Source of the DNA: Chara braunii
Lineage: Eukaryota; Plantae; Charophyceae
Assembly (NCBI GenBank): GCA_003427395.1
Contig: BFEA01000005.1
Location: 3,515,278-3,579,277, forward strand
Direction of reading: 5' to 3'
DNA length: 64,000 nt
Shown here in pieces: positions 1-36,678 of the stretch. Each line of letters starts with the position of its first letter. Position 1 is the first letter of the stretch. Below the pieces are notes generated by a model. It was given only the letters and a program-made list of their open reading frames with translations. It was not told where the DNA came from and made no database searches. Position numbers and translations under genes: made by a program.

Positions 1-738
1 AACGCGTGTTTGGGACTTGATTCCTCGCGTATACTGAGCCTAAGTGATGAGCTATGGAGGAAGAAAAAGACAGTTAAAGAGGGTTGCTTATTTGATTGCA
101 AAGTTTTTGCTAGATGGAGACTAGTATTAGCAGCCCTGGCTATAGCAGAAGGAGAAAGTTCGATGGTTGTTCCTTGATCAGCGTTGGTTATGCCCTTACT
201 GCCAAAATCTGACAGGTTTGAGTCCCTTTTTCGGAGGGAGGTGGTTCCCTGCATCAGTTTGATCGCTTTGACTGTGGAAAATAGATCGGTGTGTATGTGA
301 TCATATTCATGCAAAAGGAAAAACGAGATGAGAGGAAGAGAGAGAGAGATCCTTAGTTTCAGATCCCAGGCGGCATGCATAACCTGTACTTTTTTTTGGG
401 GGGGGGGATTGTTTGAAGAGACATGAGACTGTTCTCATAAACGTGCAAAGCGGGTGAGCCAACCTCTATGGCTTCTAAATTTTGGTCAGGACTACAAGAA
501 CTACTGTTGTTCATCTGAGTGCCTAGTTTAGAGAAACTAATGACTCAGTGAGAAAGTTCTAACTAAGGATTTATCTAAACGTGTCTGCAGTGCAGCAGAT
601 TGCACTAGCTAATCATGTTGGGTGTATAGCTCAAGGACAGGTTATCTCGCACGTCGATAGTCTAAACTAGATAGACCATTGGCCTTGCAGAACGTTTATG
701 GTTAAGGCAGTCAGGTATGTGGCAATGGACTGCCGTTA

Positions 739-1149
739 GTGACCTCGAAGTCTAGCTGGTCGCAGAATGTTTGTTTGATACTGAAAATCGACATCCTATC
801 CCTGGTGGAAAAACACTACATCAAAATTCGCCAGTACGTTTTCTCAAGCCGTTTACTTAGAGTAGCGGTTAAGGAATCTCTGCAAAATAGAGGAGACATG
901 GGGAGTGAAAAAACTCTATTGGTGTCCTACATATCTTGTCAAGATAGAGTGAAGAATTTGGGGGAAGAAACACTAGAAAGCTTTCAGTGCCACATAAGGT
1001 TAATGAGAGAACATGCACTGAAAGTAGTGAAAACACAGAAAACCATTGAATATGTCATATATTTTTATGGGCCTAACGGAGAGTTGGACAGTACCTACTC
1101 GCACCTAGAAACGACTGAACAGGCCAGGACAGAGATTGAAAGGGCGTGA
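739..1149 (+). CDS. Small LTR-internal ORF of unknown function (second copy at 20324..20608)
   Basis: Open in both LTR copies (…LVSYISCQDRVKNLGEE…YFYGPNGELDSTY…); no recognisable domain. Confidence 0.35.
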   Translation: MTSKSSWSQNVCLILKIDILSLVEKHYIKIRQYVFSSRLLRVAVKESLQNRGDMGSEKTLLVSYISCQDRVKNLGEETLESFQCHIRLMREHALKVVKTQKTIEYVIYFYGPNGELDSTYSHLETTEQARTEIERA

Positions 1150-1864
1150 CTGTGCTCAAACTCCTTTCCCCCTCTTCAACGGCATGCCCGGGCAGTAACC
1201 ACTCAGTCCCCACACCACGGTACTCTGTACCGTGATACCAAGTGATCAGTGCTTAGTATGGCGTGTCAAGTACACGTCACGGGGCTGTCCAGCTGAGTAA
1301 ACGAGCCCTAAGTACGCTGCCGAGCAATCTTGTGTTCAGTGATTCCCTCAAAACAAAAACAACACCCCCCCTGGAGAATGCATCAGTAAAGGTCTATCAC
1401 CTTTTTAGTCGTCTATCCATCGGTATCCGAGTTCTGTAAAAATCAGACAGTGCTCTTAGCGGGAGACACTGACGGTTGGCTCTAAAATCTACGCTTGTAC
1501 ATGATCATGACTCAACTAATTGAATTATACAGAGACATCAGTTAGAGCCAATCAGCATTCAGCCTGCACTTGGCCAGGTTTTCTTTCGATGTGCGATCAC
1601 TTGGGTCATTAGAAAGTCTCAGTTAAGGACGAGCAACTTCCAGACAACCTTTCATTTGTATTTGGTCATATTCATTCGACAATCAGTCAACTTTCAGCTA
1701 TTACTCAGCCATCAAAAACTCAGCAGTACTCGGGTTCAGTCAGCAAAATTTCAGCAAACATTTAGTTCTCATTTCAGCAATTAATCAGTTCGCTGATCAG
1801 AAGTCAAACAACAAACAATAGTATTCAAACGACAATCAAGCAGCGGTCAGACAAGCGTTGAAAT

Positions 1865-2125
1865 CAAGGCTGGGCCGGCAACCGGCCAGATCACCTGCCC
1901 CCGTCCAACCGGCGCCGGACCGGTCCAGGGGGGGTGAACCGGCAAAACCGGATGCCCCAAAAAAATGCCCCGAATTTTTTTCTTTTTTCTTTTGATTGAG
2001 GCATCCAACTGCGCTCGTTGAGATCTGTCGAAATCCGCATTAAAACTTGAAAGTCAGGAATTTCTTGGGGGGGGCTGGGGGTTTATGGTGCAGGGTGCAT
2101 TTCATGGGTGTACAGGCCTGTAAGA

Positions 2126-2193
<68 letters not shown>

Positions 2194-2412
2194 GATCCAA
2201 GAACCCAACCAAAGATGAAGAAGAAGTACAAGAAGAAGAAGAAGACGAGGAGGAGGAGGAGGACAGCGCTGCAGAAGGGGGTGTAGATAACTCTCTCTCT
2301 CTCTCTCTCCTCCGCTCCAAGAACCCAACGAAAGATGAAGAAGAGGAGGAGGAGGAGGAGGAGGAGGACACAACGCTGTTGAAGGGGGTGTGGAGAACTC
2401 TCTCTCTCTCTC

Positions 2413-2470
<58 letters not shown>

Positions 2471-3365
2471 AAACCCAGCGAAATATGACAACGAAGAAGA
2501 AGAATGATGGCAGGAGGAAAAGAAGAAACAAGAAGACCAAGAACAAGAAACAAGAAGAAGAACCAAGGAGAACAGGAAGAACAAGAAAAAAGAAAGAAGA
2601 AGAAGGAGCCAAAGAAGAAGACGAAGAAGAAGAAGACGAAGAAAAAAAGAAGATGAAGAAAAAAAGAAGATGAAGAAAAGAAGAAGACGAAGAAAAGAAG
2701 AAGAAGAACCAAAAAGAAAAAAGAAAACCTAAACTTAAGGGTATGGGTATGGCGGTGATGGGGGGTGCGCGGCATGGCTATGTCAGTGGCGAAGCTGAGG
2801 GCGGGCGCATGTTGGGGCAACGACGGGCTGGCGGGGCTAGAGCTTGAAGTCGACGTCCGCTCGAATGAGCGCGACGTCGACCTCGTCGGCACGTAGCCCA
2901 TGCAGGCGGGGTCGCGGCGGGTGTGAGCACATGGGCTCGTTTCGAATGGCTACAGGCTGCGTTTCGAATTCGTAACGCAGCCGATTTCGACCGCCGATCT
3001 GCAGATCAGCGACCAAAATCGGCCGCGTTTTCGAATTTGAAAATCGGGGCCTGTAGGACCCCGCATTTTGACAAAAGCGCGCGGTGGATCTCCACCGCTG
3101 ATCTCTGAAGATCAGCGGTGGAGATCCATCGCGCGCTTTTGTCGGAATGCGGGGTCCTACAGGCCCCAATTTTTTTTTTGGGCGGTGGCGGCGGCCTCCC
3201 CGAGGCTGGGAGGGCACGGGGACACCTAAAAATCCTCGGAACCCCCCTCCCAGCGCAATGCGCTGGTTCGAACCGGGGGCCTGCCGGTCCAGTGGACTAG
3301 CCGGTCCGACCAGGCGGCTCCCGGTCCAAGGAGGCCCCCCCGGTCCATCCGGTGGACCAGCACCG
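1865..3365. mobile_element. Non-autonomous hAT-type DNA transposon inserted in the 5' LTR of A
   Basis: Absent from the 3' LTR, where the empty site is GTTCAAAT at 21316..21323. 8-bp TSD GTTGAAAT (1857..1864) / GTTCAAAT (3366..3373). Imperfect TIRs CAAGGCTGGGCC / CGGTGCTGGTCC. Many subterminal CCGG/GGACCGG motifs. Confidence 0.88.
2126..2730. repeat. Three units of (TC)n followed by CCAAGAACCCAAC..AAAGATGAAG and a (GAA/GAG)n tract
   Basis: Seen directly; explains the spurious low-complexity ORFs in this interval. Confidence 0.9.
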
Positions 3366-3580
3366 GTTCAAATGACATCCAATCAGCTCTCAAACAACGT
3401 CTAACTAGCATCTAAGCAACATCTAACTAGCAGTCAAACAACACTCAAGCACCGGTCAAGGATCTGTTAATTGGTGACAATTGTTGCCTGATTCAGTGAG
3501 CAAACAATTGGCTTGATCCGTAAAGGACTTATCAATAAGAGATTCAGCCTCTTTCAGCTATCAAGCAGCTGGCCAAGCAC

Positions 3581-4234
3581 ATGATAGAGATCAACCCCAT
3601 CACGATTGACCAACTAGTCCTCGACAGCCTCAACCGGGTAGCCTCGAGAGAGTGCTTCCCCTACAAATATGTCTGAATCGATGGTTTCAAGCGTGAAGAT
3701 CTGTCAATCTTCATTGCTCTCACAGAATTTGCAGAAGGTACAGTCAAAGATCTGCGGATCTATCTAAAGAAAGGGAATAAGGTTCATCCACATTTTGATG
3801 CAGTGTGGGCTGCAGCGGCCGGGTATGTGCAGTGGAAAGTTGAGAGGCTTCAGGCGAACACAAAGTTAGTTTATAGCTTCGGGCCTAAGCTTTTCACTGA
3901 CTATCCCAAACCTCCGGTCCCCTACTATCTTAGTGATGACTCTTATTGGGGTGGACTGGTGGACCTAACCAAGAGATACGTATCGCCAGCAGAGATCGAT
4001 TACGAGGCAATGACTGAGCCTTCTAAGTTTCCACATCTCAGGAGGGGAGTTTTCTCTCAGCCCTATCTCCCTACACTATGGGAGGAATTTTGTGCCATGC
4101 TTGACTTCCGTATTATGGGACTTGGCTGGAAGTGTTTGGAACTAGTGGGCTTCAGGTGGCTTTACATTCATAAGTCACAACCTCATAGAGTACGGAAACA
4201 TGGCAAGAGGCCCAGACGACAGGCAACAAAGTGA
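3581..4234 (+). pseudogene. LTR-encoded 'FPY-motif' ORF with one in-frame TGA at 3674..3676 (second copy at 21531..22163)
   Basis: ATG 3581 is in frame with ORF 3803: MIEINPITIDQLVLDSLNRVASRECFPYKYV*IDGFKREDLSIFIALTEFAEGTVKDLRIYLKKG…; paralogous to ORFs 5050 and 5470. Confidence 0.7.
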
Positions 4235-4728
4235 CAGATGAAGAGTGAAGTCCTGAGGGTTGAGTGAAGACTCTTGATTGGTACTGGCCATGCTTTTTTC
4301 CATGTGTACTCCCTGAGACTATTACGAGTTCTCATTCTTCCCTCGTTCATTTGCTCTTGTCATTGCTCGAATCAGTCGGTCTTGCTTCTTGCGTTGTTCT
4401 TGCCTGATGATTGTTATCGTGAATGATTCTGTCACAGTTCTAAAAATCAGATTGACATAATTTATGCATGCATGGCACCCCATAATTTTATGATTATTAT
4501 TTGCGTAATTATCTGCTGTTCCGAATCAAAATAAAAGATTCCCAAGACCGGGGATCGGCGAAGAGCGTAATTGAAGGGTCTCGCTCGAAGCCGGACGCAC
4601 ACAACAGGAAGGGATTTGCATTTATTTAATTCATTTTATTTATTGCAACCTCATACAAAATCCTGCGTGACAGCCTGTTGGCTTTCCGGTCGCCCGAAGT
4701 GGCTCGGCTGGAAAAAGTGCGACAAAAA

Positions 4729-4746
4729 TGGCACCGTTGCCGGGGA
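4729..4746 (+). promoter_or_regulatory. Primer-binding site, tRNA-Asp type
   Basis: TGGCACCGTTGCCGGGGA, 4 nt after the LTR end; one mismatch to the Athila-type PBS TGGCGCCGTTGCCGGGGA. Confidence 0.9.
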
Positions 4747-5049
4747 CATGAAAAGATTTTCGTGTCTGGAACGAGCCTGGGTCATCATCATCTTTGAGCT
4801 TTGATTAGGGCGTGAGAACTGCTGACAATATTATGAGCTTTATATTAAATTTATTATTTTCATTGAGTCTCGATTCTCTTGAGAATCACAGCTGCTAACT
4901 GTGTCTTGTTTCTTCCTTGTGTGAGGTACCACACTGGACCGGAGAAGGAGATTAAGATTATTGACAGAAAATCAGACTTGAATTCAGGTATGCCTCATGA
5001 ACCTATGATGCCCTTTGAATATTGAGAAGAGAAAAGAAGCATCAAGAGC

Positions 5050-5319
5050 TTGGAGATTTCATCAAGAATGTTAACTTCAGATGCATTGAGAGAACTCGTG
5101 AAAGTGACTACCAAAGGAATATTCCCCTATCAGTACGAGCATTGTTGGGTCTACCATTCTGGCAATTCGACCATCAACATAGTGCTGACTTGCTTCTTAG
5201 AGGGAGATATTTATGATATCCGTCCCTATGTCAAGAAGGGAGACTGCGACGATGGTGAGATATTCAACTGGATAGGGAAATTGCAATCCAGTCTCTTCAT
5301 GATGAGAAGGCAGATCTAA
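5050..5319 (+). CDS. Pre-gag small ORF, FPY-motif paralog 2
   Basis: …ALRELVKVTTKGIFPYQY…IVLTCFLEGDIYDIRPYVKKG; shares motifs with ORFs 3581 and 5470. Confidence 0.65.
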   Translation: MEISSRMLTSDALRELVKVTTKGIFPYQYEHCWVYHSGNSTINIVLTCFLEGDIYDIRPYVKKGDCDDGEIFNWIGKLQSSLFMMRRQI

Positions 5320-5469
5320 TTAAGCAGAAGAAGAAAGTGGAATGGGGTTTAATGCAAGTGACATATGAGACTATTCCGATCTCTCCTATACCTAACAGTT
5401 ATTGTGATCGGACTAACTGGCTGCCGATAATTAACATGGTATTGACAAGGGAGAAAATAAACAGTCGGC

Positions 5470-5838
5470 ATGAGAACTAAAGAGATTTCAGCAGAGGAAA
5501 TCAGACGGAGAAGACTGAAATTTGGCAGAGGTTCAGGCCCAGGTCCAGAGGAAGTCGAGTGTCTCCTAAAGTCACTGAACACTCTAAGCAAGAGAGAGGT
5601 GTTTCCATATGAGGTTGTCAAATATGAGATGGTCGAGAGCGGATGGGAGAAGGAACGATTATACATACTGACATTCTATTTCACAGAACTGGACGTGTAT
5701 GATGTGAGAATCTATGTTCCAAAAGAGAGAAGTGTTGAAACAGTGTATGAGAGATGTTGGGGATTTGATGAAGAAGTCGTACTAAAAGAGAAAAAGAGAC
5801 TTGAGAGAGGGAATAAATATTTTACTGGATCTACCTAA
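5470..5838 (+). CDS. Pre-gag small ORF, FPY-motif paralog 3
   Basis: Intact ATG..TAA; …LLKSLNTLSKREVFPYEVV…YILTFYFTELDVYDVRIYVPKE. Confidence 0.7.
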   Translation: MRTKEISAEEIRRRRLKFGRGSGPGPEEVECLLKSLNTLSKREVFPYEVVKYEMVESGWEKERLYILTFYFTELDVYDVRIYVPKERSVETVYERCWGFDEEVVLKEKKRLERGNKYFTGST

Positions 5839-6622: not shown

Positions 6623-6625
6623 ACA

Positions 6626-6892: not shown

Positions 6893-6961
6893 AGGGCAAG
6901 AAAAAAAAGGACAAAAGTGACAGAAAGAGATAAGGAAGTATTCGAGAGAGTCTATGGTCAA

Positions 6962-8098: not shown

Positions 8099-11000
8099 AT
8101 GTTCATTTTATCATTGAAGAGTTGCCTAATGAACTAGTACAAAGAACAAGTGACCCTTATACCACGATTGAGTTGTCTCTGCAATCCTTAACATTGACAG
8201 AGTGTGAGCCTAGCGAGACATCTACAAGTGAGTCTCCATTGGGAGGGGATCCTGCTTCTCAGAATCCTTCTGAATTAGTAGAGTCCTCTTCCAATGAAAT
8301 GACTCGCTTCCTGGCTCACATGATGTCGTTCCATGGTGATTTACCCCCAGAACTCGTCATGAAACCTAGTGTCAAGCTTGACGAAGTGAGAAACCTTCAA
8401 ACTCGCATGACGCCTCAAATGATAGAGGAAAAGAAAAGGAGGAAGACTGAGGAGTCACTGATTAATATCCTTGATGATCCGGAACCGAAACTTTCACATA
8501 GAAAGAATGAACAGGGGAGAAAGAGAAAATTTATCCTCAAGAGTGACTTGGATGATGAGACAGTGATTTCTTATGTAATTACTAAAATGCTGGAAGAGAC
8601 GGAAGTGATATTGCCCTTCAAGGAGACAATGACTCTAGCACCCAAATTGAGAGAAGAGCTGAAAAAGTTGATTGAGAAGAAAAAATTGAAAGCTAATTAC
8701 TTGGGATCAGTCTTTCCCAACCAAGTGAACAGGTCACTGTCAGGTTGCAAGATGAGATTCGCAACCATGGGATATGGACACCTTACAAGTTGTATTAATC
8801 AAGTGAAGATTCTAGCCTTAGTGGACTCTGGAGCAGAGATGATACTCCTTTCTCGAAGAATGATGGAGGCATGTAATTTATCTATTGATAGAACTGCACA
8901 AAATGTACTGAGCAATATTGCAGGAGAGCTGTTTGTGGCAGGGTTCATTGATAACCTGCCTATCAGAGTTGGAACAATGACTGTGAAATTGCTGGGTTTT
9001 GTAGTGCCGGATCTGGACCATGACTGTATCTTGGGAACTCCATTCTTGCATAGGATGGAGGGGGTTCAATTATTCAACCATGAGGGGTAATCTTGGATCG
9101 GCCTACAAGATCCTGAGACTGCTCAAGAGCAAATCTTTATGGTCTGCACAAAAAGTGATTTCAAGCATCAATTGTCTGCTAATTCAATCAGAAGAGAAGA
9201 GTCAGCTGAAAGGGTTAGGAGACTAAAGGAAGAAGGAAAACAAGAAGCGAAAGAAGAGATTTCGGTGGGTATCAATCAAGTTTCAAAAATGATAAAAGCC
9301 CTTCGTAAACTCGAGGATGAGGATGAACAAATTGAAGCCTTTAAGAAGGCTGTCGAGACTGCTAAAGGTGGAAAGATAAAATTGAAATTTGCAGCGACTC
9401 ACCATTTTTTAGAAAAATAGTCACTGGGTCAAAAATAAAATATAAGCCCAAGGGGGTGAAGAAAAACTCGGTGGCAGTCCTAATAGAAAAAAATTATAAT
9501 GCAGCAATGAAAAGGGTGAGAGAGATTATTAAAGCATTGAGAGAGTCTGCAAAATTGGGGAATAGGGTCACCAGAGAGAGATTTGACACGATGAAGATAG
9601 GCTCGGATCAGTTTATCCTGCCTAGAGAGAAATAATATATCTTCAAGATGTGTCAGGACTTATCCGGTGCATTTTCCTTTAATGATGAAGAGAGAGGGCG
9701 GTTGGATGTGGATATGATCAAGATGACCAAAATTTGGACAGTTGATCATGTTTCATGGAATGATAGACCGACCAAGTATGCCGTGAAAGAAGAAGCAAAA
9801 GTTGTAAAATACCTTGACAAGAAGATTGCATCTAATGTTATTGAACCTGCTGATGGACCGTATGCTAACCACTGGTTTTGCTTTTGGAAATCAGGGGGTG
9901 GATTGAGATGGATTCAGAATCTTCAGAAACTCAACTCTGTGACGGTATGTGATGCGGGTAGTCTTCCTAATGTTGATCTCCTCTCTGAATCTTTTGCTGG
10001 TCGATGCATTTATTCTCTAGTTGATTTGTATTCTGGCTATGATCAGTTTTCCATTGATCCCACTAGCCGACCAATGACTGCCCTGCACACGCCAAGGGGA
10101 CTCATTCAAATGTGTGTGGTGCCTCAGGGTTGGACTAATGGTGTGGCGGTGGTTCAAAGGGATATGATCCAAGTCATGCAAGATATTTCTCCTGAGATAA
10201 CCAGTCCCTACATTGATGACAATCCTGTAAAAGGACCCCTGGTAAGGGATGAGACTTTGGTTGCAGGTGGAGTCAGAAAGTTTGTCTGGAACATGCTGAA
10301 GGAGTAAAGATGGTCCTAGAGAGACTTCTGACTGTCAGTGGACCAAAGTCCCTTCTCTTCCTATCTGAGGTGATCATCTTAGGCTTCAGGTGTTTCTCCA
10401 AGGGTAGGAGTCCTGACCCCAAGAAGATAGACAAGATCTTAAATTGGCCTCTTCCTCTCAAAAGAGTGACAGACGTCAGGAGCTTCTTGGGAGTCTGTGG
10501 ATTCTGGAGGATTTTTATTCCTCATTTTGCTACCCTTGCAGAGCCTCTGAGGGAAATGGTAAGGCAAGGGGTTAATCTAGCCTGAAATGATAAAAGACAA
10601 GCTGCCGCAGAAACACTACAGGAAAAACTAAAAGATGGTGGTGTGGTGCTGGGAGTACCACTTTAGGCCGATGGAGGACCGGTTGCTCTGGGTGGAGTGC
10701 TCATTCAGAAAGATGAAAATGGGAAAGAGAGGCCTCTGAGATATAAGAGTAGAACTCTCAATTCAACAGAGAGAGGTTACACCCAATTCAGGAAGGAGCT
10801 ACTGTCGATCATCCATAGCTTCAGGTGCTTCAAGCACTACATACTAGGAAGGAGATTCATCTTGAGGACTGATGCATCTGCTGTGATTGGTGCCATCAAG
10901 AAGCACCAACAAGTAGATCCAACAGTCAGCAGGTGGATCGCCTTCATCTGGACATATGATTTTAAGTTGGAAAAGATTTTCACTGAGAAGAACAGAGCAG

Positions 11001-12655
11001 ATGGTCTAAGCCGGATTGAGTGGCGAAAAGAAGAAGAAGAGGATGTAAATGGAACGCTTGAAGAATCATCCTATGTTGATAATTTTCTTAATGAGAAAGA
11101 TGATGAGGATTATGAAGCACCACACTCCTACAAGTGGAGTTTGTGGCATGAAGAGATAGACAACTGGGGAGAAATCCCTAATGCATATGTTTATGAGTCG
11201 ATTCTTAGGAAAGAAGAAGAAGATGAACCAAATGATTGGTATGCTAGAGTTAATGCAGCAGAAGTGACTGCTCATGAAATGGGGGAAAACTCTGGTTCAA
11301 AGGAAGAAGAAGAAGGAGGCGAAAAAAAGGAAGAAGATATATTTTTCATATTTGAGGAATATGATGAAAACTATCAAGAGATTGGTAAGAGGATGAAAAA
11401 GGAGCAACTAAAAGAATAGTATTGTAAGAATTCAAGGAAAAAGTTCAGACTAAAAAGAAGACATTTCTTTGTGGATGGTAAGGGAGGCCTACTTCCACTA
11501 AGGGTGGTCTGTGGTAAAGAGAGACAATTAGAGATAATTGCTGCTCTACATGAGGGGGGTGCTGGTGGCCACAGGGCTGCCGAGGCAACCTACTCTAAGA
11601 CTGTCAAACTCTACTTCTGGCCTGGCATGAGAGACATGATTTTCTGATTTTGTAAATCATGTGTGTTATGTCAGAAGAGGTCTCCCACAAGAATGATTGA
11701 ACCTTTATTTCCCACTATTCTGGTAGAGCCAGGAAGCAGAGTTCATTTAGATCTCATCACAATGCTTTTAGGCAAGGGCGGAATGAGATATATACTGAAC
11801 TTGAGAGATAACTTCTTTGGACATGTTGAGGCAAAAACTATAAAAAGAAAGACAGCCGAGCAAGTGGCTGACTGGATAGAAGAAGTTCATCTTAGGTATC
11901 CTTTTATCAGATAATTTGTCTCTGACAGGGGATCAGAATTTTGAAATGAGATCGTTAGGAGAACCACACTCAGGTTGGGTGTCAGAATTCTGTATGTGAC
12001 TACTTACCATTTTCAAGCTAATGCACTTGTTGAAAGAGGTCACAAAACTTTGAAAGATTCATTGGCCAAGTGGTGTGAAGGAAATCTCAGCAACTGACCA
12101 AAAGTGTTAAGAGCTGCTGTATATGCTGACAACATCACAGTTAAAAGAACTACTGGCTATGCACCATTTACTCTGTGGTATGACCGATATGCTACATTGC
12201 CTATTGAGAATATTGTCAAGACATGGTCAAATCAAGAAAGTGACAGGGACTATTCTATTTCAGAGCTCCTTCAGATCCGAATGAGGCAAATATCAGACGT
12301 TGGCCAGACAGTAATGGATGCTGCAGAAAGGATGACATCTAACAGATTGTCAGATCAAGAGAGATGAAACAAGAAAAGATACATAAGAAAGGAAAAACTG
12401 AAAGTTTGAGATGTTGTCCTTCTGTTTGACAGTTCCCTTGAGACACAATGGACTAAAAGGTTGGAGCCCAGATGACTTGGTTCTTATAAAATTATGGGAG
12501 GAGCAGAGGGCAAAGTTTATGAGATCTTAGAGATGGATGGATCCAGGGTTCATGACATGGTATCAAATTCAAGACTTCGTAAATTCATATTCAGAGATCC
12601 AGATCTGATTCCTACGGTAACCTCAAGGAGAGGGAAGAAAAGTCAGTCATCTAAG
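8095..12655 (+). pseudogene. pol: Pol of element A: protease, RT, RNase H, integrase; no chromodomain; fragmented
   Basis: Protease ALVDSGAE…ILGTPFL; RT DLYSGYDQ, PQGWTNG, YIDD; RNase H KELLSI…RTD…ADGLSR; integrase H..GH…C..C, HLD, SDRGSEF, ANALVERGH and a GPY/F-like LGSYKI; stop at 12653..12655. Confidence 0.95.
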
Positions 12656-15324: not shown

Positions 15325-15339
15325 AAGAGGGGGGGCGAG
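15325..15339 (+). promoter_or_regulatory. Polypurine tract
   Basis: AAGAGGGGGGGCGAG immediately before TGTTG. Confidence 0.8.
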
Positions 15340-25455: not shown

Positions 25456-25457
25456 GG

Positions 25458-25475
25458 TGGCGCCGTTGCTGGGGA
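25458..25475 (+). promoter_or_regulatory. Primer-binding site, tRNA-Asp type, of family B
   Basis: TGGCGCCGTTGCTGGGGA, 2 nt after the LTR end. Confidence 0.88.
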
Positions 25476-25678: not shown

Positions 25679-26383
25679 CAGTGTTACCTGACCGAACATT
25701 CGGGGGCCCCCGGGCTGGCCCCTGAACGTTCGGGCGTTCGGGGTCCCGTTCGGGGGCTGAACTCCTCCAGGTTTGGACCCCGCCAAATTTTTTTTCGGGG
25801 CCTAAAAATAAGTTTTTTTTCTGATTGTTTTTTGTGAGTTCTCTATGATGTAAACTGCACCCCTATAAATTTTGAAGTCATTCTTCTAAGCCAAAAAAAC
25901 ATTAAAAATCGTCAAAGATGGGGGTGTCAAAACGTGCTCGCCCACTCAATATTTTTTTTTTTTCACTTTTCACTTTTTGTTTTCACTTTATTTCGGGGCC
26001 TAAAAAATTTTATTAGTTTTTGAAAAATTGTTAATGAGTTATTGATTATGTAAACTACATATCTATAAATTTTCAGGGTATTTATCAATGCCAAAAAATA
26101 ATTAAAAATCTGCAAAGATGGCGGTGTCGAAAAGGTGTTGGCACATTCACTCATTTTAATTCTCTTTTTATTTTTTCTTATTTTTATCATAGTGTTTATT
26201 TTCTGTATTTGATTTTTAATTCAATTGTGGTAAAGAATTTGGATGTAGTGCCCAGGCAAATGTTGGTTAGTTTATTTTTGGGTCCGCGTATGGCCCGAAC
26301 TGCCGAACGCCTTCCGAAGGGGTCCCGTACGTTCGGGCGTTCGGGTTTGGGCGTTCGGCCCGTCCCGAACGCCGACAACCCTG
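25679..26383. mobile_element. hAT-type MITE (~705 bp)
   Basis: TIRs CAGTGTT / CAGGGTT; 8-bp TSD GTTGTAAT (25671..25678) / GTTATAAT (26384..26391); subterminal CGTTCGGG repeats. Confidence 0.88.
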
Positions 26384-27447
26384 GTTATAATATTAAATGA
26401 GTCGCACTTCGTTATATTGATATTCATCGACTTTATCTATAAATTTTGACTTATTGTGTTGGAAATTATTATATTTTATATGTAATGTTTTAATCGGACA
26501 CTTTATCCAGAAATTTGAGGTTTCCTTTCAGTTATAATTTTAGTAGATTGATTTTTTCATGCAAATTATTATCAGTTAAAGCTATTTGAAACACTGTCAA
26601 GCAGGCATTAACTTTCTTTTTATATTTTTTTACAATATTTATTCAGTCATGAATTTGATTATTATTACTATATTTTGATTGATCAGTTTATCGGGACTTC
26701 TATAAATTTCGATATTATCTACTTTTGTGATGCATTTCTGTCATAAAAGTGCATTTGATCTATTGTTGGAAATTATTTAGCGGGGGTCATTTTGTGTAAA
26801 AGTGTTTTGTATTGATATTGTAAGATATGTTATTTTGTTGAAGATGTTATCATGTGACAATAAATTTCTGATGGATTTGTGAGCTAAGTAGGTGGTAGGT
26901 AGGCTCGCGCCGAGGCTGCTCCTGGTCCATAGTGGGATGTTGTTTTCCGAATCCTATGTGGTTTAAGGAAGAAGGACTACACTATCATTGAAAAGGGAGG
27001 AAGATGTTGAGGCTTTGTTAAAACGTTGCATGTAGTTGTAGGCGACTATTGTTTGTCGTGAGGGAATGAGTGATCACCTAACCTCGTTTCGAACAGAGTC
27101 ACCTTATCTCTATGGCCGATGTCTGATCAGCCTCGGTTGTATGAGGTAGGGTTGTCATACTCTATGTGCAAAGGATTGATAGGGTCGCAGCGCGGGAATC
27201 AGAGGGAATGTGTTGAGGCTCGAATCTAAAGTGGGGTTTGATGTCGAGATGTTATCTCGTGAAGAGGATTACACCACTCCTCGACGCATATCACAAGGGT
27301 TGAGGAAAATCAGATATGATGACTATGAAAGTGAGATCATAACTTGGACGGAGGATCTTGGACGAATGGTTTATCTCATAAATGGTTAGTTTGGGCAATG
27401 TCCGAACTATTCCAGGAGGTTGGTGTGAAAAGAAGGAAAAACCTGTT

Positions 27448-27712: not shown

Positions 27713-28897
27713 TTTTTCGGAAATGATAGTATCAATCAAATAGATTTCATTTTGGAACTAGTCGGAGGGCTTTCGATACCATTCTGAGAGACTAAATATT
27801 GTTTTGAGTGAACGCCAGTGGGATGATGCTAAGACCATCATGAAAAGGGTTCCCCTTAAGTTGAAGGCTTGCAAGGGCTAGACTTGGGTCCAAGTTCTGA
27901 TGGTATAGTGATGTGAATGAATTTTGTTTCATTGACGAAAAATTACAGTTTGACTCCGGGCGAATGTTTGATCTGTTGAGTATTGTAAATTTTTGTCTCA
28001 CATAGACATTTTATGAGAGTTTTAGTTTTGATGGTGAACGACGGGGATGTCGTTCAATGAGGTTCAGGAATGTTGTCGGCAAATACCTTGACATTTGTAT
28101 TTGCAGGGGATTTTAAACATCGGATGTTATTCGATTCTTTCTTTCAATTAAAGGACTTGATGAGACTGGCGTTTGCTAAAAGTTTATTCAGACTTGACCT
28201 ATGACTGAGAGACTAAAAGTTTTTGAGCTTTAATCCGGACACATGTGGCGTACAAGAGTAATGACAGTAACTGACAGTGTTTCACATTTGTCAAGGTCAC
28301 AGAAGCACGTGAACGTGAGAACGCAAAGTTAAACCTATGCTAGAGCCTAAGTAGGTTAAAAAGAATGGTCGCGACATGTATGGGGCCGCAATGTGGGAGG
28401 AATATGAAGTTTTTTTTTTTTTTTTTTGCCCGCTATCGAGAGCATCGGTCCCACGTAGTGCGGGACCCTCCCGGCCGCGTCACACAGGAGTTGGTCTAAA
28501 CTCACGATACACAAGGAGCTTCCGCAAGCCGCTCTGGCCGAGTGCGCCAACCATACCTCTCGCCAACCCTTACGACAGGATAGGGCCAACGCGAGATATA
28601 ACTTACCTCCACCTGCGAGAGTTATCACCTCCCTCCGATGGGCGTATCCCCTCCAAGCTACCAGTCCACAGTAGGAAAGTTAATCAGTTGCAATCGCAGA
28701 GGTGGACCAGCCGAGGGCGTTTCTAGTTCGTTGTAGCATAGAGGTTATGTGTGGTCCCACACCACTATCAGACCCGCATGCCAACCGACGCATTGGGGGG
28801 CTGAAGTCTCAAGCGCCATTCGTCGCCGGTCAACTAGGACGCATCTCATTCACCAGGCGTTATACCACACTTAAAACACAAAAATAAAACACACTGT

Positions 28898-28942
<45 letters not shown>

Positions 28943-29879
28943 ACGAAACAACACATAATAAAACAACGCAACCCATCCTAGTCCCTTCAGTACCCATCCC
29001 ATAACCTTCTCACGTGGAAATCGAATAAGCAACACACGGGAGACTTAATATAAAACCGCGCGGATGCAGGGTTTTCTCATATCGACTAGCAATGCATTCA
29101 AACAAAAGTAGTCGCAATGATGGCGTATTATGTAATACCCATACTCATAAGCTCCTCGTTAATCTCAAGGGTTGCATTCGACACCCAAGTGTCGGTTGAC
29201 ACGCCTTGAAGGGTTAATCTCTCGACGCTAGACAAACGTCAAGTGCGGTTGAGAACTACACGCTCTTCTACCCCCGACAGAGAGTGGGTGGTACACAGGT
29301 TCATACCTGTGGTAACAATCATCTCTTATTGCCCCGGAGACCAGCTCCATCATCCAAGGTCTGAAGAGAACTCAAGGGGTTTGACTTTGACGGCTGCCAC
29401 GGGCTACAACGTCCAACTAAAAAAAATTATAAAAAGCAAAGGATAAAGGAGGAATCTCTGTTTTCTCTCACGGCATAATCTGTTTAACCCTTATACACAG
29501 TCACAACAAGGTCATGCGAACACCTAACGTGTATGTATTTACATATATAGAGAGGATTATAAATATATGACGATCACCTCTCACAATCACCATGGGACTC
29601 CTTTCAGCACTATATATATGTATGTGATCGCGGACACTCAAATCCAAAGTCCGAAACACCAAACATACCTGCAATCACATCAAAGAATATATATTTTTTT
29701 CTCTCACGCCATAATTTGTTAAACCCTTACGCACAGTCACAATAAGCCACACGAACACCCACCACGTTTATATTTACATATATAGAGAGGATTATAAATA
29801 TGTGACGATCACCTCTCACTAAAGTCTCCTACTGACTAAGTTTAAATCCACATCTAAGCTAGTGCCAAAAAAAAGTTAG

Positions 29880-30505
29880 AATTTTAACAGAATCTTCCCT
29901 ATTTTGGATGGATCGCCAGAATCGTCACCTGTCAAAGTATAATTTGACTCCTTTAAACTAAGAAAATTTTGGCAGCGTTTCCTGTAGAAAAATTGTTTTT
30001 TCATAATTTATATTAGCCCAAATATGAAAACTGAAATAACCCTCAACTCTACAAAGTCAAATTTTGTCTAACTCCTTGAATTAGTAAAAATTTGGACAAC
30101 ATCTCTTGTGGAAAGAGACACTTTTCAGATTTATACTAAGTCAGATATGAACTCAAACATGAGACTTGAGTTCTATCAAGACAAAATCCAACTAACTCCT
30201 TAGATTTGTAGAAATTTTGGCAGTCGTTCCCGGAGAGAAAGTAGTTTTTCAAAATTTATATAAAGCTAAGTTAAGAATCTAAAAATAACTTTGACTTGTC
30301 AATCTCCAGTTTTTATCTAACTCTCTGAATTATAATTTTTTTTGGCAGCACTCCCTTTAGAAAATGAGACTTTTCATATTTTTACTAAGCAATATATAGA
30401 ATTTAAAGAAGAATTTTGGAAAACCAAAATTTGACAAACTCCTTGGTTTTGTAGAAATTTCAGCAACGCTTTTCATAGAGAAAGTAACTTACCAAGATTT
30501 ATACA
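29880..30505. repeat. Degenerate ~120-125-bp tandem repeat inside LTR C
   Basis: Recurring AACTCCTT…GAAATTTTGGCAGC…GAAA…TTTTCA..ATTTATA, about 5 copies. Confidence 0.7.
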
Positions 30506-30804
30506 AGATCAACCAAGTATAACAAATGATCCCATAAAAGATGAGAATTGACCTAAGTAAAAACATTAGCTCAGAAAATGCAAAAATTGAAGCTGACTAT
30601 TATGGATCTAGCACGTAGTGGGCATCTAACGCAACTACCTATCAACTAAAACTCAGACAAAGTAATGCTCTCATTCAGACACTTACAGAGCTAAACCACA
30701 ATAATAAGTATTGTCACTAGCCCCAAGTCAACCTGGTCAAACAATAGTTCGTAGTTTTTCAATGATTTATCCCTTATACCCAGCTTACATAAGGCGTAAA
30801 GCTA

Positions 30805-31435
30805 GACCATCCAATGTTATGGAAACCTGTATAGCTCAGGGCACTACAACTTTTTTTTTCCTTGGGCATATGACTAGGCTATCCAATCTAGTGGCCCTGA
30901 ACTGTTTAACTATGCAAGTCATATAAGGCTCATCCCGCCCCTTCTTATCACAAATTTATTCTTAATTCATACTCTCTTCAGTTGGTAATAAACTATAGTC
31001 AAACCATCCAATCTTATGGAAAAATGTCTCACTAGCTTGTTCATAAATAAATTAGTATGAAAATATAAACAAGTTTATCCCTTTGGTTCCAACATGTGCG
31101 TGGCTCCAGACCTGACCACCCAATCTTATGAGAACTTGTCCAGTCCTTCGCCTGAATTTCCCTTAGAACAAAACAAGAGAGAGTCAAAGTCATCCAATCT
31201 TATGGAACATGCTCAACTCTCTTTTCAGAAACCAATAAAACATAAAAAAACTCAAAAAAGACAAAGCAACCAAGTCATCCAATCTTATGGAAAAATGCTT
31301 GGTCCCTGAAAATCAAACAAAAACGGCGTTTGCATGTCAAAGCAATCAGACCACCAAATCTTATGAGAACCTGTTTGGTCCTTCAAGCAACCGAAAATAA
31401 ACATAGCATTGAGTCCTCCAATCTTATGGAGACTC
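30805..31435. repeat. Semi-regularly spaced CATCCAATCTTATGGA motif array inside LTR C
   Basis: About 8 copies (~30808, 30880, 31005, 31116, 31190, 31275, 31352, 31414). Confidence 0.8.
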
Positions 31436-34400
31436 TCCCGGCCTTTGGTTAACCCAGTCTACCGCACGCAATACCACCTTCCTCCCACCTTTCCCCTATA
31501 TGCAACCCCTTTTCACAATCTTCTTTCAGTCAAACAACAAAATTGAAACCGAACTTTGCACAAACATTCATTTACTTAAGTCTGGTTTGTGTCCTGAAAG
31601 TCAAACATAAAGTTAGAGTAGGGATGCAAACAGTATACTCAGTCAACCATAGGAAGAAATACAGATAGAGGTTATAACTAGATTTATAAAGGGGAAGTAA
31701 TGATTACCTCTCAGTTCCCTGCCTCCAAAACTCTTCCTTAGTTCCGACAGAGCTCCTGCAATCGGTGGGCAGACTCCCCACAGAGTCTTGTTGCGGTCCT
31801 ACGGGTTGCAATCCCGCCTGCTGCCTTCCTCTTGTAACCACATACTAGACTTAGATTAAGAAGGGCAGAAGGAGGGGTTTCAGACTCTCAAGATATAGGA
31901 GAGGGACAAACTTAACTTTCAGGAGAGGGCCTTAAAACCTTTATACTCCTGAGGGCCCCACAATGATAGTCAGGAATGTGCAACAACTTAGTCAATCAAA
32001 GTCAAACCGCTAGTTGTTGACTTCTTGACGCTCTTCTCAATTCACAGTAATACCCACCTTTCCTGAGCTTAGTCACTTTCCTATGGCTCGTGACCCGAAG
32101 TATACTGGCGACGAGTAAGTTTGCACCATCACAACTTGTCTGTTGCAGTGCAGGCTAATAGGCTGAGTGTCACACTAGCCAACAGATAGATCCGCAGTCC
32201 CCGCGACAAAACCCGATAGTATTTTCAACAATGCATACACTATGATGCTTAGTAGCACGCACAATAGCCCGTAGCAACACTTTGGTAGGCAGAATGCCCC
32301 GAGGAAGCTCCACCAAACCAACTTTGCAGAGCAACTGTAATGATCACAGCGGCCGCGACCGTAATATACTGCAACAGTTCGCACTGTCAGCTTACACAGT
32401 CGCACTAGTAGCACTCAAATTGAGAAGAGGAACAACGACACAACCTTAAAAGAGAACTCAACAGGAAATTATATAGTGATGAAAGCAACAGGACACAGTA
32501 AACCATTGTGCAACAGCAACCGAAGTGCACTTGGATATCAGTTGAGCACACTTCTGCGAAGGCCAGATACGTGCACGGCTTGATGTTGTACTTCCAACTC
32601 TCGATTCCCTTCTCTAGCCTAGACTAACTGACTAGTCGTTCCTACGCGAGCGCCCGTTCCTCTAAATGGTAATCTACAGTCACACCTTCAACTGTCATTG
32701 TGTGAGATGTCTCTAAATTTCATCGGTGGCCCCGTCTACCATGAGAGACAAAAACTGTTGTTCAGAGAGAAACCCGAGCAAAGCTTGGTCACAATCATAG
32801 TGATGCCCCAAAACACAACATTAATAGGCCATATTTACGTCAATCAGACACAGTAAGCTGACACTGTGATCTTTACGCATGACAACGTCGGGATTGTGGG
32901 CAACATGAAGATTAAGGCCCGGATCATGACCAGGGGCAGTGCAGATCCTCCACCCATGACAACGGTCGCAATTATGAGTGGGGCTCACGACTACCGGGAA
33001 CTGCCCCACCACTCACCCACTGTGCAAGCGAGAATGAATCTGTTGCTAGAGCACAGGCAGATGCATACGAAATTCACATGCTGACGAACTCTACAGCATG
33101 ACATCGAAGCTTGACTTTTTGTTTATCCTGCATCGAGAGGTCTATCAGGTAGACTTCTCCTTTCTTGCACTTAACTTGCAGTGCAGTAACCCTAGCAGGT
33201 AAGCTCTTATCCCCGCTCCCTTCTTCTTCCGCTCTCCTGATAAACAACGCATCCGCCAACAGGCAAGTTTGTAATCTTGCGGTTGGCCTCCCGATGACGA
33301 CAGTTAACCCCATACTGAGCATTGACCATGATGGTGGGTATAAGGGGCAGCGCTAGGATCTTCGATCTCAACTGTGCAATTCAATAATGAATCTTCCCCT
33401 AAAACAAGGGAAGATACATCATGCATCTTATACCAAGTGAGATTCACTCTTGGACGCTGCCGTTTTTGCCCACACCGGTTGAACTGTCGTACCAAGTCTT
33501 CATATGTTGCGGCCATCTGCTCTGCAACACCTCGAACCCCCCACGTAACTTCTTTTCTCACTCGATTCTATAAAGGAACGAGTGAGATTCCTGTTTTACA
33601 CTCCTGCTATGCCATCCTCCTGATTACCTTCGCGCAACCTTTTTCTTCATTAACTTTCTCTCTACTAACTGATTACTAAATCTGACTTTAGAATCCAGGT
33701 CGCCTGCCTCGAAAAACCCGGATTCGAGTCTTCCTTTGTCTGATTTCGTCCACAAACGAGTACGGAAATGCTCGTTTCCCCTTCTTCTTCTCCCCTTCTG
33801 CCATAACTCCGTACAATAGCTTTCTTCTCTAACTCCCTTTTTACTAACTATCTACTAAAACTGACTTCATAGTCGTGCTCCCCCGTCTAAAAAACCTCCG
33901 ACTAACACTTTGATCCGCCCGGTTTCATTTAGAGACAGGTGAGCTACACAGTTTTTAGCTTCGCCATACGTTCTCCTTCGCATTATTTACCATCTTCGAT
34001 TCTTGAACGTACCTGGTGCGAATCTGCGCCGGGTTCAGTCCATCCTTTTTACGACTTGCCTTTCCCCGTCGTTCCTCTGCCTGTCTACGCTGCTGCTGCT
34101 AGCGCAGCGCCCTGGTAGTCGCAATATCACGTTCTTACTGCCCGACAGTCCCCAGTTACTCTGCTTTCATTGTTTCATCTCCCGACCTTCCACTCACCCT
34201 TCTGACCAACGCTGCCTTCCCGACAACGTCCAACTGCGCAGCGCTCGCTTCCACGCTGGCTGGCCAGCGGTTTAACAGTCCCGACCATTCTAAGAAGAGT
34301 TCGGGGATAACCGGCTACTAGGTGGCTTGAAAGTCTTTTGCCCCGATACCCAATCCGACGAGTGGGGCGTGCAGCGCATATTGCTGTCGACCCGCTACAA

Positions 34401-36678
34401 CCTGCCCCTACTCGCTTCACTTCGCCACTACCTCAGATTCCCAATTGGCAGCTCCCATACGGATAGTCGATGCTGGGTCGAGGGCACGACTTGCTTGTAA
34501 AGCCCAAGCGTGGGCCTAGGTGAGACGACCCCGACAAAGGTCTTGGTGGTAGCAGCAAATATTAGAATGAGGACTTTGAAAACGGATGTGGAGGAGGGCC
34601 CCATGTGCACAGCCCGGCCAGACAATCCCCCTACGGACTCACCCATAATGCCTTGACCTGCTCTGCCCAGGCACTGTCCACTTCTTTTGGGTCCCGACGG
34701 GCATGCTCACACTCAAAAACCTCCCACGACAGACTACAAGGAACGGACGGCGCTCCGCAAATAGTCCCCACCATTCAGGTTCCTTCCGTCTCGTGGGCTA
34801 ATCACCCGCTAGCTCGCATGCATGTTAATCTTCCAGGTCCGTAGTTTTAAGACGGGCAAGATACATAAATTTCGTCAACATTCTCAACACACTGGAATCC
34901 GTAGGTCCGTCAAAACGAGGCGCACGCTCAAGGTCCCCGACTGCCATGACGACCCCTAATCCGATGTCGCGCCTTGTTTGAAGATCGCTGAAATATAAAA
35001 ATAATAATATTATGACAATAAATAATAAAATATTAAGAAAAAAATAATCATCCCAGAAGGACAAACGAACCCCGACTCCGCCGACGACAAAACCAAAAGG
35101 GGAATACGCCCGTCGGTCCTCAATTTTTCTGCGTCCACCACACACCTCTCCACTACTCCTACGCCATCGCCGTTGGCCTCGACCCCTGAATCTCCCTGTT
35201 GTAGGTCTGACACCGTAACCGATAGTGTTAGGCCCAAAACTGAGACTCTTACTAGTAGCTACCTATATAGGCAAATACCGCCTGGTGTGCGGATCTACTG
35301 AAACGTTTCTAAGTCACATTGTTGTCGATATCGTCCTCCGCAAGTACGTACAGATCACAGGCAAGCACGCCAATCAAGAGACAATATATTTTTAATCCTA
35401 GTTTAATCGGACATAAAAATCTGGCCGGCGACCAACACCGGTTTTCACAATCATCAAAGGGAGAAGAGATCACGAGCGCCTTAAGTCTGCGCGCCCACAC
35501 ACTCTCTACCCTAGTCAACCATCCTGCCAACGTAAACAATGGATACCATTGCAACTTGCGTGGTGTTCCAGACTTTTTAAACTAACTATTTTTTGTCACT
35601 TGCAAAACCCAGGGCGGATACCCTTGTAAGGGTATTCGCTCCGACACCGCGGGGGTTGACCTCGAGCCAAGGGAGGGGCCAGCAGGCCGATGCCGAGGCC
35701 TACCTGTTGGGTGACCCCGAAGCGATGGATAGACAGCCATCCACGGGAAAGCGGCAGACAAGCACGACCTGCAAGGACACAGGCAGGAGGCCTACTGGTG
35801 CAACCCTTCAAATAGACAAGGGTTGCTGCTATAGCTTCCGTACTAGGAGGTAGCCTTGTAGGTATTGCACTGAACTACCACTCGACAAAGACCAGAATTG
35901 AGCCCAGGCTACGCGAACACTGGGCTAGCTCCTTTTGGAGCTGCCTCACTTTGCAGATGGTGCGGTCCATCTCGACCGTGTGATCACAAAGATCATACGG
36001 CCGAGATAGGCCGCGTGGATTGCATAGCCCGTGCGCAAGGATGACAAACATAAATTGAGAAATGGGCCGAATTTTTTGAAACTTGGGTCTTTGAGAAGTT
36101 TGTGGGTTTACCACGAACGAGATGAATGTCAACATAAGCCAACAAGGAAAAAAAAAAAAAAAAAAAAACTAACACCAGAAAGCGTCATATGGCACACTTT
36201 GAAGTAATAGGGAGTTAGACCTCCCCGCGGACAGCACAAGCGTCCGAAGTAACGGGCAACCGTTTTCTTAGAAAGGTAAGTTTTGTTTTTATTTTGTTTT
36301 TGTTTTTTGTTTTTTTAGATTTTCTTCTTTCAGATTTGCTTTATATATATATTTTTTAGATTTCCTTTTTTGATTCGGTATTTTCTTTTTAGATTTTGAT
36401 CTTATTAGTAGTGCCCGTTCGTTTCTACGAACGGGCTGAGTACTTCCTTTACAGATGAGCAAAATCGAATAAATCTACCACGGAAGTGCGGCTACGTTCC
36501 GGGCGTGGGTTTTGGGACCCTGTACTTGAGTTACGAGGGACTCTCTGCACACGTTTGGGTGGTTTCCAGTTGATAGGGACAGGCGAGTCGTTTTCTGGTG
36601 GTCGAACGAACATTTTTGCTGCACCGTTCGGGTCTGTTTTTCTCGAACGGCTGTCACGACACTAGCAATAGGCGCGAC

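What the first reader, a model, noticed from the sequence alone, without database searches (positions are those of the whole stretch)
1..35646. A lineage of gypsy elements with ~7-kb, gene-carrying LTRs
Seen: the 3' LTR of A spans 15340..22671 (7.3 kb, bounded by the PPT) and solo LTR C spans 28434..35646 (7.2 kb, bounded by a TSD). These are two independent measurements in families whose LTRs do not otherwise align. Known: LTRs are usually non-coding, and even Ogre-type LTRs are typically shorter than this. The LTR of A contains at least three ORFs (17185, 20324, 21531). Inference: this is a lineage whose LTR is itself an accessory gene cassette, so every solo LTR would leave a promoter and genes behind.
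Basis: partly seen in the sequence, partly recalled or inferred. Interest (0 to 1): 0.85.

Follow-up and report, generated by a model that had tools for sequence, protein, structure and literature searches.

The report
Giant gypsy LTRs carrying genes
A jumping gene, most likely from the stonewort alga Chara, has end repeats of at least 5.5 kb and likely 7.3 kb that carry three decayed small protein genes, at least one kept by selection in the family, while a neighbouring 7.2-kb lone end repeat of a likely related family carries ribosomal-RNA fragments instead of genes.

Summary
Largely real, with corrections. The host is almost surely Chara (52 of 52 RT hits). Element A is a decayed non-chromovirus gypsy element. 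Its LTR is directly duplicated over 3.2 kb (94%), and its 3' end is a family terminus. Other Chara gene models carry ORF 17185 both before gag and after pol (two copies 66/72 identical), which puts the ORF inside the LTR and makes the LTR at least 5.5 kb. The 7.3-kb start at 15340 is the best PPT but is unproven; 16302 (6.4 kb) remains possible. ORF 17185 has 28 homologues and a third-codon-position bias. ORF 21531 is a paralogue of two ORFs just behind the PBS. All three ORFs are damaged in this copy, none has a known family or fold, and the RNA laid shows no expression. C is a credible 7.2-kb solo LTR, but it has no ORFs above chance; its length comes from tandem units, a low-copy middle and LSU-rRNA-derived pieces. 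Termini share 4-bp NCGN target sites, as in moss Phygy. Verdict: new variant of gypsy element; 'gene-carrying' holds for A's family only.

The parts
1..4724 (+). Element A, distal part of 5' LTR (window starts inside it)
   Evidence: 94% to 19456..22671; ends CGACA before the PBS
1866..3364 (.). 1.5-kb insertion present only in the 5' LTR; imperfect 8-bp duplication GTTGAAAT/GTTCAAAT; hAT-like by recall
706..1149 (+). LTR ORF beta, 5' copy (147 stop-free codons; ATG at 898)
   Evidence: 40% to gene model P0073
3581..4234 (+). LTR ORF alpha, 5' copy (stop at codon 32)
   Evidence: homologues P0059, P0082
4729..4746 (+). PBS TGGCACCGTTGCCGGGGA (tRNA-Asp type, assignment recalled)
5026..5319 (+). 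Leader ORF, paralogue of LTR ORF alpha
   Evidence: profile E 1.2e-8, no hit in reversed control
5470..5838 (+). Leader ORF, paralogue of LTR ORF alpha
   Evidence: profile E 3.7e-8; 59-77% to P0081, P0080
7100..12660 (+). gag, protease, RT, RNase H, integrase; broken by stops and frameshifts; no chromodomain or second RNase H found
15325..15339 (+). Best polypurine tract
15340..22671 (+). Element A 3' LTR: 19456..22671 shown by duplication, 17149..22671 by gene models, 15340 start inferred (alternative 16302)
15440..15999 (+). Family-wide conserved non-coding block
   Evidence: summed contig depth 16,000-25,000 against 140-240 on either side; 15672..15791 also in gene model P0052
16991..16996 (+). 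TATA-like TATAAG, 194 nt before ATG 17185 (untested)
   Evidence: sequence
17185..17685 (+). LTR ORF gamma (166 codons; stop at 17260)
   Evidence: 28 Chara homologues, 46-83%; mismatches by codon position 15/20/41 against the in-window homologue; N-terminal domain pLDDT 75-90 over residues 21-90 of homologue P0060
20357..20608 (+). LTR ORF beta, 3' copy (GTG at 20324)
   Evidence: 39% to P0073 downstream of gamma
21531..22185 (+). LTR ORF alpha, 3' copy (stop at codon 32, frameshift near 22083)
   Evidence: 52% to P0059 downstream of gamma; 8 profile hits
22672..22675 (+). A's right flank GCGG (NCGN; half of the expected TSD)
22832..25455 (+). B: distal LTR of the C-type group, followed by PBS TGGCGCCGTTGCTGGGGA at 25458
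28434..35646 (-). C: 7213-bp solo LTR, TSD CCGC, non-coding
29461..31430 (.). Tandem units in C (about 236, 124 and 76-197 bp spacing); unit number varies between copies
   Evidence: joints that skip 250 or 385 bases
31707..31946 (-). C: TATAAAG at 31946 and a splice-donor-like site at 31707; likely promoter and first exon
   Evidence: stranded RNA depth 11.9 and 30.2 against 0.8 and 0 in bin 31619..32231
34254..34886 (.). Three LSU-rRNA-derived pieces in C (middle one inverted), shared in position with copy E
   Evidence: blastn to rDNA loci E 3e-7, 1e-16, 3e-22; C 34490..34957 matches E 51293..51742
40366..40590 (-). Homologue of ORF gamma in another, interrupted element
   Evidence: 55% aa identity

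Best explanation
Element A is a decayed gypsy retrotransposon, most likely of Chara, whose end repeat is at least 5.5 kb and likely 7.3 kb long and carries three small accessory genes, which would be copied to both ends by ordinary reverse transcription and would stay behind in solo LTRs. Shown: the domain order, the duplicated distal 3.2 kb, the PBS, the family terminus at 22671, ORF gamma on both sides of gag-pol in another copy, the order gamma-beta and gamma-alpha in other copies, codon-level constraint on gamma, and paralogy of alpha with leader ORFs. Inferred: the start at 15340; that the ORFs lie in U3 (only the last ~450 bp are family-wide conserved and the single AATAAA is at 22478); that they are expressed from an LTR-internal promoter such as the TATA-like site at 16991; that alpha entered the LTR by duplication from the leader array (or the reverse) through template switching; and that the proteins are element-encoded regulators acting in trans, most likely transactivators or silencing suppressors. 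C is a solo LTR of a likely related, non-coding family that reached similar length by tandem units, a fast-changing middle and captured rRNA pieces.
For: Domains PR-RT-RH-INT; RT hits 52 of 52 Chara braunii, best 80%. Gene model P0054 reads gamma, A-type gag (72-78%), A-type RH-linker (77%), gamma again; the two copies are 66/72 identical. Of 28 models with gamma, 12 also hit A's gag-pol; among the 4 with 50% identity or more, gamma is before (P0060, P0065), after (P0052) or both (P0054). P0059 continues gamma into alpha (52-57%), P0073 gamma into beta (39-40%). Five of 28 models start at the ATG equivalent to 17185. The window's stop at 17260 is a sense residue in 25 of 25 aligned homologous stretches. 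DNA-only alignment to the 40366 homologue: mismatches 15/20/41 by codon position, p 1.7e-4. Contig depth is higher over gamma (920/1196 against 113/154 upstream) and at the start of alpha (685/785 against 92/107). Termini: loose ends at 22671 and 35646 begin ACG; flanks of A, C, D, F fit NCGN, E does not (4 of 5).
Against: The upstream 5' LTR was not read. The first 100 bp after 15340 are low-copy (bin depth 162/239) and no loose-end pile shows there, unlike C's conserved 5' end. The conserved block 15440..15999 has about the depth of internal blocks (16-25k against 22-27k at 13480..13759), which fits an internal position as well. Gene models can join neighbouring elements: P0058 has two gamma copies only 57/109 identical, and 8 of the 12 models join gamma to distant gypsy domains (29-39%). 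Beta shows no depth enrichment (115/152 against 80-120) and has one homologue. No expression: depth 0.5 or less over A's LTR in X5 and X7, none over the gamma bin in X5; X6 is unstranded and follows the DNA profile (6-13% of each run was read). No Pfam family or fold supports any function.
Confidence: 0.62

Rival explanations
1. Same gene-carrying LTR, but it starts at 16302 (6.37 kb) or another site between 15340 and 17149, so the length lies inside the Ogre range and the conserved 15440..15999 block is internal.
For: An 18-purine run precedes TGTTG at 16302; a similar A-rich run precedes TGTTG at 27005 in the B/D element; block depth equals internal depth.
Against: 15340 has the G-rich tract typical of PPTs (recalled) and a relative shows an extra GGGGGA there; depth rises from 66/147 at 15329 to 181/297 at 15382 (few contigs).
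Confidence: 0.2
2. A's LTR is only 3.2-5 kb; ORF gamma is an ordinary extra ORF between pol and the 3' LTR, and its double occurrence in gene models comes from adjacent elements.
For: PPT-like GAGAGGGG|TGTTG at 18219 and a purine run at 17681; extra ORFs are usually internal (PMC7264820, part 1 of 3 read); chimeric gene models exist (P0058).
Against: P0054's two copies are 92% identical against 46-83% between window and family members, and they flank A-type gag-pol; P0060 and P0065 have gamma before gag or protease. Alpha and beta would still lie in the proven LTR.
Confidence: 0.1
3. The ORFs are passengers: once-functional leader genes swept into the LTR and now decaying, with no role from the LTR position; solo LTRs leave silent pseudogenes.
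For: All three are damaged here; alpha's stop is in both LTRs, so it was probably present at insertion; no RNA seen.
Against: Gamma shows near-saturated synonymous against low non-synonymous change (pS 0.85, pN 0.23) and has no leader paralogue in this window, so the selection acted on the LTR copy if gamma is always in the LTR.
Confidence: 0.25
4. C is not a plain solo LTR but a shorter LTR lengthened by a nested or captured 1-2.5 kb piece, or a deleted element.
For: 32232..34683 has depth 25-413 against 10,000-157,000 in the rest of C; 32232..32844 is almost unique; the 3' end is TA.
Against: 33524..33929 and 34490..34957 are collinear with copy E at 61-64%, below the 82% laying threshold; a nested transposon would more likely be high-copy; no PBS or PPT was found inside C; no joint skipping this part is among the 15 shown (1977 not shown).
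Confidence: 0.2

Closest known systems
Phygy (moss non-chromovirus gypsy; PMC6317226, section 13, passages and supplement file 3 read)
   Same: 4-bp TSD with NCGN preference, described there as unique to Phygy; no chromodomain, no second RNase H
   Different: Phygy is 7.7-10 kb, has no extra ORFs and mostly a tRNA-Trp PBS; A is about 25 kb with extra ORFs in LTR and leader and an Asp-type PBS (assignment recalled); RT placement not tested
Ogre / Tat (PMC6431247 passages; PMC6317226)
   Same: Giant size driven by multi-kb LTRs (1.9-6.5 kb in Ogre); extra ORFs upstream of gag
   Different: Ogre has a second RNase H, 5-bp TSD, tRNA-Arg PBS, and its extra ORFs are described as internal; here ORFs lie inside the LTR
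Athila
   Same: tRNA-Asp PBS (72% in the supplement; match to ours recalled), no second RNase H
   Different: 5-bp TSD without sequence preference; extra ORF between pol and 3' LTR
Burro/GYPSM1 of planarians (PMC6431247 passages)
   Same: Giant gypsy elements with accessory ORFs, over 30 kb with LTRs
   Different: Animal lineage, huge polyprotein with env-like part; A's internal region is only 10.6 kb
Retroviral LTR-encoded genes, MMTV sag and HIV nef (recalled, nothing read)
   Same: Protein gene in U3, copied to both ends
   Different: One gene in LTRs near 1 kb; here three genes in a retrotransposon without a detected env
Cassandra TRIMs with 5S rRNA in the LTR (10.1101/2023.07.14.548913, start of abstract in search listing only)
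   Same: rRNA-derived sequence inside an LTR (element C and E)
   Different: Here LSU pieces, about 70-77% to distant rDNA, partly inverted, with no known internal promoter, in a 7-kb LTR
20-30 kb gypsy-like repeats reported in the Chara braunii genome paper (recalled as 'Chbra'; paper not held)
   Same: Host, superfamily and size class
   Different: Recalled as lacking integrase, whereas A has one; whether that paper describes LTR length or LTR ORFs could not be checked

Membership tests
Ty3/gypsy | Order gag-PR-RT-RH-INT | tested here: met
   Pfam hits in this order; gag by similarity to Chara gene models only
Ty3/gypsy | Two LTRs TG..CA, PBS, PPT | tested here: met
   3.2 kb duplicated, CGACA end, PBS at 4729, PPT at 15325; 5' start outside the window
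Chromovirus | Chromodomain after integrase | tested here: not met
   No hit in three frames of 10599..13402 read with X
Phygy | 4-bp NCGN TSD | tested here: met
   C: CCGC both sides; flanks of 4 of 5 termini; loose-end consensus begins ACG at 22671 and 35646
Phygy | tRNA-Trp PBS | tested here: inconclusive
   PBS read; its assignment to tRNA-Asp is recalled, no tRNA set was compared
Phygy | 7.7-10 kb, no extra ORFs | tested here: not met
   Internal region alone is 10.6 kb; extra ORFs present
Phygy | RT/RH/INT clade | not testable with these tools
   All 52 RT hits were Chara; no Phygy reference was available, no tree built
Ogre/Tat | Additional RNase H domain | tested here: not met
   One RNase H only, in A and in the intact relative P0001
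Ogre/Retand/Athila | 5-bp TSD | tested here: not met
   C has CCGC; the fifth bases differ
Solo LTR (C) | Both LTR termini, TSD, no PBS/PPT/coding inside | tested here: met
   5' end aligns from base 1 with E, 3' end with B's PBS-adjacent end; terminal CA reads TA; no ORF above shuffles
Solo LTR (C) | Whole length matches an LTR pair of a full element | not testable with these tools
   No genome held; no contig spans it
LTR-encoded gene | ORF present in both LTRs | tested here: met
   Alpha and beta directly; gamma through gene model P0054
LTR-encoded gene | Purifying selection | tested here: met
   Gamma: 15/20/41, p 1.7e-4. Alpha: conserved motif at 27-57% across homologues. Beta: one homologue only, weak
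LTR-encoded gene | Transcribed and translated | tested here: inconclusive
   No stranded signal in 6-13% of three RNA runs; this copy is old and expression may be stage-specific
Known protein family or fold for gamma, alpha | Pfam, structure or Atlas match | tested here: inconclusive
   Best VIA Z 5.8 (rmsd 2.0, 67 aligned) and 5.1 (rmsd 3.9, 96 aligned), within background

The most novel reading that the evidence does not exclude
Probability: 0.4. Interest if true: 0.8.

Novelty: new variant of a known kind. Interest (0 to 1): 0.62.

Why it matters
Extra genes of plant LTR retrotransposons are described as internal (PMC7264820, part 1 of 3; PMC6317226). Genes inside the LTR are doubled in every insertion and survive solo-LTR formation, so a genome could hold many more copies of the accessory genes than of gag-pol. 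LTRs above 6 kb are outside the limit used in the reference plant survey (LTR-FINDER -L 6000), so such elements are likely under-annotated in Chara, and their ORFs already contaminate at least 28 Chara gene models. NCGN targeting shared with moss Phygy suggests a CpG-centred target preference older than land plants, which is testable by phylogeny.

Tried and rejected
LTR start at 15684 (loose ends at 15682, 68/73 contigs, consensus ending AAAAAGGGGGG): rejected by eye as the variable tip of a hairpin, since the consensus is complementary to the sequence after it; not folded. Starts at 17681 and 18219: disfavoured because they lie downstream of gamma. Word-index search with alpha: 0 of 69 candidates; the exhaustive profile search found 8, one of them (P0086) a repetitive, probably false hit. 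Pfam: nothing for the LTR or leader ORFs. Folds: alpha model poor (mean pLDDT 46); no Foldseek match at E 0.001 for gamma in PDB or BFVD; Atlas gave no usable feature hit. This is no evidence of a new fold. Beta paralogues in the leader (6443, 6731) scored only E 0.43 and 1.8: a hint, not used. 5' versus 3' LTR dN/dS (0.43 alpha, 0.65 beta) rests on 32 and 27 differences and was not used. Rfam found no rRNA in C; blastn to fetched rDNA did. Two metagenome pattern scans found nothing. No RNA holder was listed for the LTR. The RNA peak at 34684..35296 was rejected as expression: the loose letters agree 0.94-1.0 in most rows and match the rRNA-like stretch of E, so these are probably rRNA reads. 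Literature: searches for ORFs in retrotransposon LTRs returned 0 papers; searches on Chara elements and rRNA capture listed nothing on point; these are phrase searches of an open-access library, and the Chara genome paper and its supplements were not held. No earlier notes on this genome.
Full report
Host and element. The RT frame at 9648..10304 has 52 relatives at E 1e-20 among 755 candidates, all Chara braunii gene models, the best at 80% identity. Contigs of up to 1691 bases from runs X1 and X2 lie on the window with no difference at depth 9-20, so the organism is in those runs, and 9-20 marks single-copy depth; the tool warns that summed depth is not a copy number, so I use it only comparatively. 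Element A reads protease, RT, RNase H, integrase on the plus strand, with a gag region recognised by similarity to Chara gene models. It is broken by many stops. No chromodomain and no second RNase H were found.

The proven part of A's LTR. Window 1..1864 and 3366..4724 match 19456..21323 and 21316..22671 at 94%; K2P distance is 0.061. A 1.5-kb insertion sits only in the 5' copy, so nesting lengthens that copy but not the 3' copy at this place. The match ends at CGACA, followed by a PBS in the 5' copy and GCGG in the 3' copy. In one search, 165 and 157 contigs leave the window at 22671 into mixed sequence (agreement 0.39 and 0.37) whose consensus contains the PBS, so this is a family terminus.

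Where the LTR starts. The upstream copy could not be read. PPT-like candidates before TG were at 15340, 16302, 17681 and 18219. Gene models narrow the choice. A profile of ORF 17185 (gamma) finds 28 Chara models among 7807 candidates, 46-83% identical. P0054 reads gamma, A-type gag (72-78%), A-type RNase H linker (77%), gamma again, with the copies 66/72 identical, the pattern of an LTR pair. P0060 and P0065 have gamma before gag or protease; P0052 and P0072 have it after pol. P0059 runs from gamma into alpha (21531) and P0073 from gamma into beta (20324), the same order as in A. So the LTR most likely reaches at least 17149, giving 5.5 kb, and the two downstream starts fall away. The caveat is that gene models join neighbours: P0058 holds two gamma copies only 57/109 identical, and 8 of the 12 models with gag-pol hits join gamma to distant gypsy domains. 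Between 15340 (7332 bp) and 16302 (6370 bp) I favour 15340 for its G-rich tract and the TGTTG/CGACA symmetry, with a weak depth step (66/147 to 181/297). Against it, the first 100 bases are low-copy, no loose-end pile shows there among the 24 rows shown, and the conserved block 15440..15999 is no deeper than internal blocks. Depth in 18133..19358 (62-94) is of the same order as in the proven 19359..21197 (80-152), slightly lower; no high-copy insertion lies in 17520..19455. Bases 17381..17519 were not covered by reads.

Are the ORFs genes? Length alone says no: 13 of 100 shuffles reach the longest frame. Homology says yes. Gamma: a DNA-only alignment to the homologue at 40366..40590 gives mismatches 15/20/41 by codon position (p 1.7e-4), pS 0.85 against pN 0.23; the window's stop is a sense codon in 25 of 25 homologous stretches; 5 of 28 models start at the same ATG; AlphaFold gives a confident beta-beta-beta-alpha-beta domain (pLDDT 75-90 over residues 21-90 of P0060) followed by a low-confidence acidic tail, with no clear fold match. 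Alpha: paralogous to two ORFs just behind the PBS (profile E 1.2e-8 and 3.7e-8, no hit in the reversed control), with 8 hits in the exhaustive search, three named Chara, four unnamed short contigs and one probable false hit; its stop at codon 32 is in both LTRs. Beta: one homologue at 39-40% and no depth enrichment, so the weakest. No stranded RNA lies on A's LTR in X5 or X7; X6 is unstranded and follows the DNA profile.

Element C. It starts TGTCGG at 35646, aligning from its first base with copy E, and ends at 28434, aligning with the end of LTR B, which is followed by a PBS of the same type as A's. TSD is CCGC. 173 contigs leave at 35646 into unrelated flanks. A and C do not align. C has no ORF above chance. 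Its 3' half and 5' tip are very high-copy (10,000-157,000), its middle 32232..34683 low-copy (25-413) but partly collinear with E at 61-64%. Tandem units at 29461..31430 vary in number between copies. Three pieces at 34254..34886 derive from LSU rRNA (E down to 3e-22 against fetched rDNA) and sit at the same place in E, where Rfam also finds LSU rRNA. A TATAAAG at 31946 and a donor-like site at 31707 fall in the one bin with a stranded RNA signal that is not rRNA-like (11.9 and 30.2 against 0.8 and 0); the reads are mostly 82-95% alike, so they come from other copies, and the position within the bin was not shown.

Mechanism. Shown: long LTRs, LTR-borne ORFs in A's family, selection on gamma, NCGN flanks at 4 of 5 termini. 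Inferred: the ORFs lie in U3, are copied to both ends in reverse transcription, are expressed from an internal promoter, and encode trans-acting regulators; alpha moved between leader and LTR by duplication; C's rRNA pieces were captured by template switching to co-packaged rRNA. None of these steps was tested.

Comparison. Ogre LTRs are given as 1.9-6.5 kb (PMC6431247, passages). Extra ORFs are described as internal (PMC7264820, part 1 of 3). A works like a Phygy-type integrator with Ogre-like size and retrovirus-like LTR genes (the last recalled), but fails tested features of each family, so I file it under none. The Chara genome paper, recalled to mention 20-30 kb gypsy-like repeats, could not be read and may already cover part of this. 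Two unchecked AI notes report gene-carrying solo LTRs in flatworm Burro-type elements; they are leads only.

Verdict. Observation partly confirmed, interpretation partly supported. New variant of a known kind; interest 0.62.

Noticed in passing
window 42664..42700: CTGTCTCTTATACACATCT-AGATGTGTATAAGAGACA beside the N gap looks like a Nextera mate-pair junction adapter (recalled), with 42570..42667 duplicating 43751..43848: probably an assembly artefact.
   Followed up: no
window 51074..51687: Copy E carries LSU-rRNA pieces; RNA loose ends laid on C match E's stretch near 51503..51550 almost exactly, so E's piece is closer to real rRNA than C's. Could mean repeated refreshing from rRNA.
   Followed up: partly
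window 22832..25455 and 38227..40365: B and D are 86% identical and may be the two LTRs of one non-autonomous element into which A and C inserted; a purine run before TGTTG at 27005 could be its 3' LTR start (about 6.1 kb without C).
   Followed up: partly
window 24822..25296 and about 25690..26400: Short insertions; the second lies in bins of depth 128,000-260,000 and has an inverted relative at 49095..49540: MITE-like.
   Followed up: no
window 1866..3364: Insertion in A's 5' LTR holds (CT)n and (GAA)n tracts and a 110-bp palindrome at 3051..3162.
   Followed up: partly
window 43484..49105: A second element with 628-bp direct repeats (96.7%) and minus-strand ORFs of 337, 224 and 168 aa without Pfam hits.
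   Followed up: no
window 61414..64000: F, the 3' end of a C-type LTR on the minus strand, inserted at ACGT into an RT-like frame (61016..61420); a 61/120-bp tandem array follows at 62973..64000.
   Followed up: partly
window 36017..36076: U6-like match (Rfam 35.7 bits, below the gathering score of 44); a possible LSU-like stretch near 36910..36960 seen by eye was not confirmed by blastn.
   Followed up: partly
window 14580..15047, minus: 155-aa low-complexity antisense frame just before the PPT; no Pfam hit.
   Followed up: no
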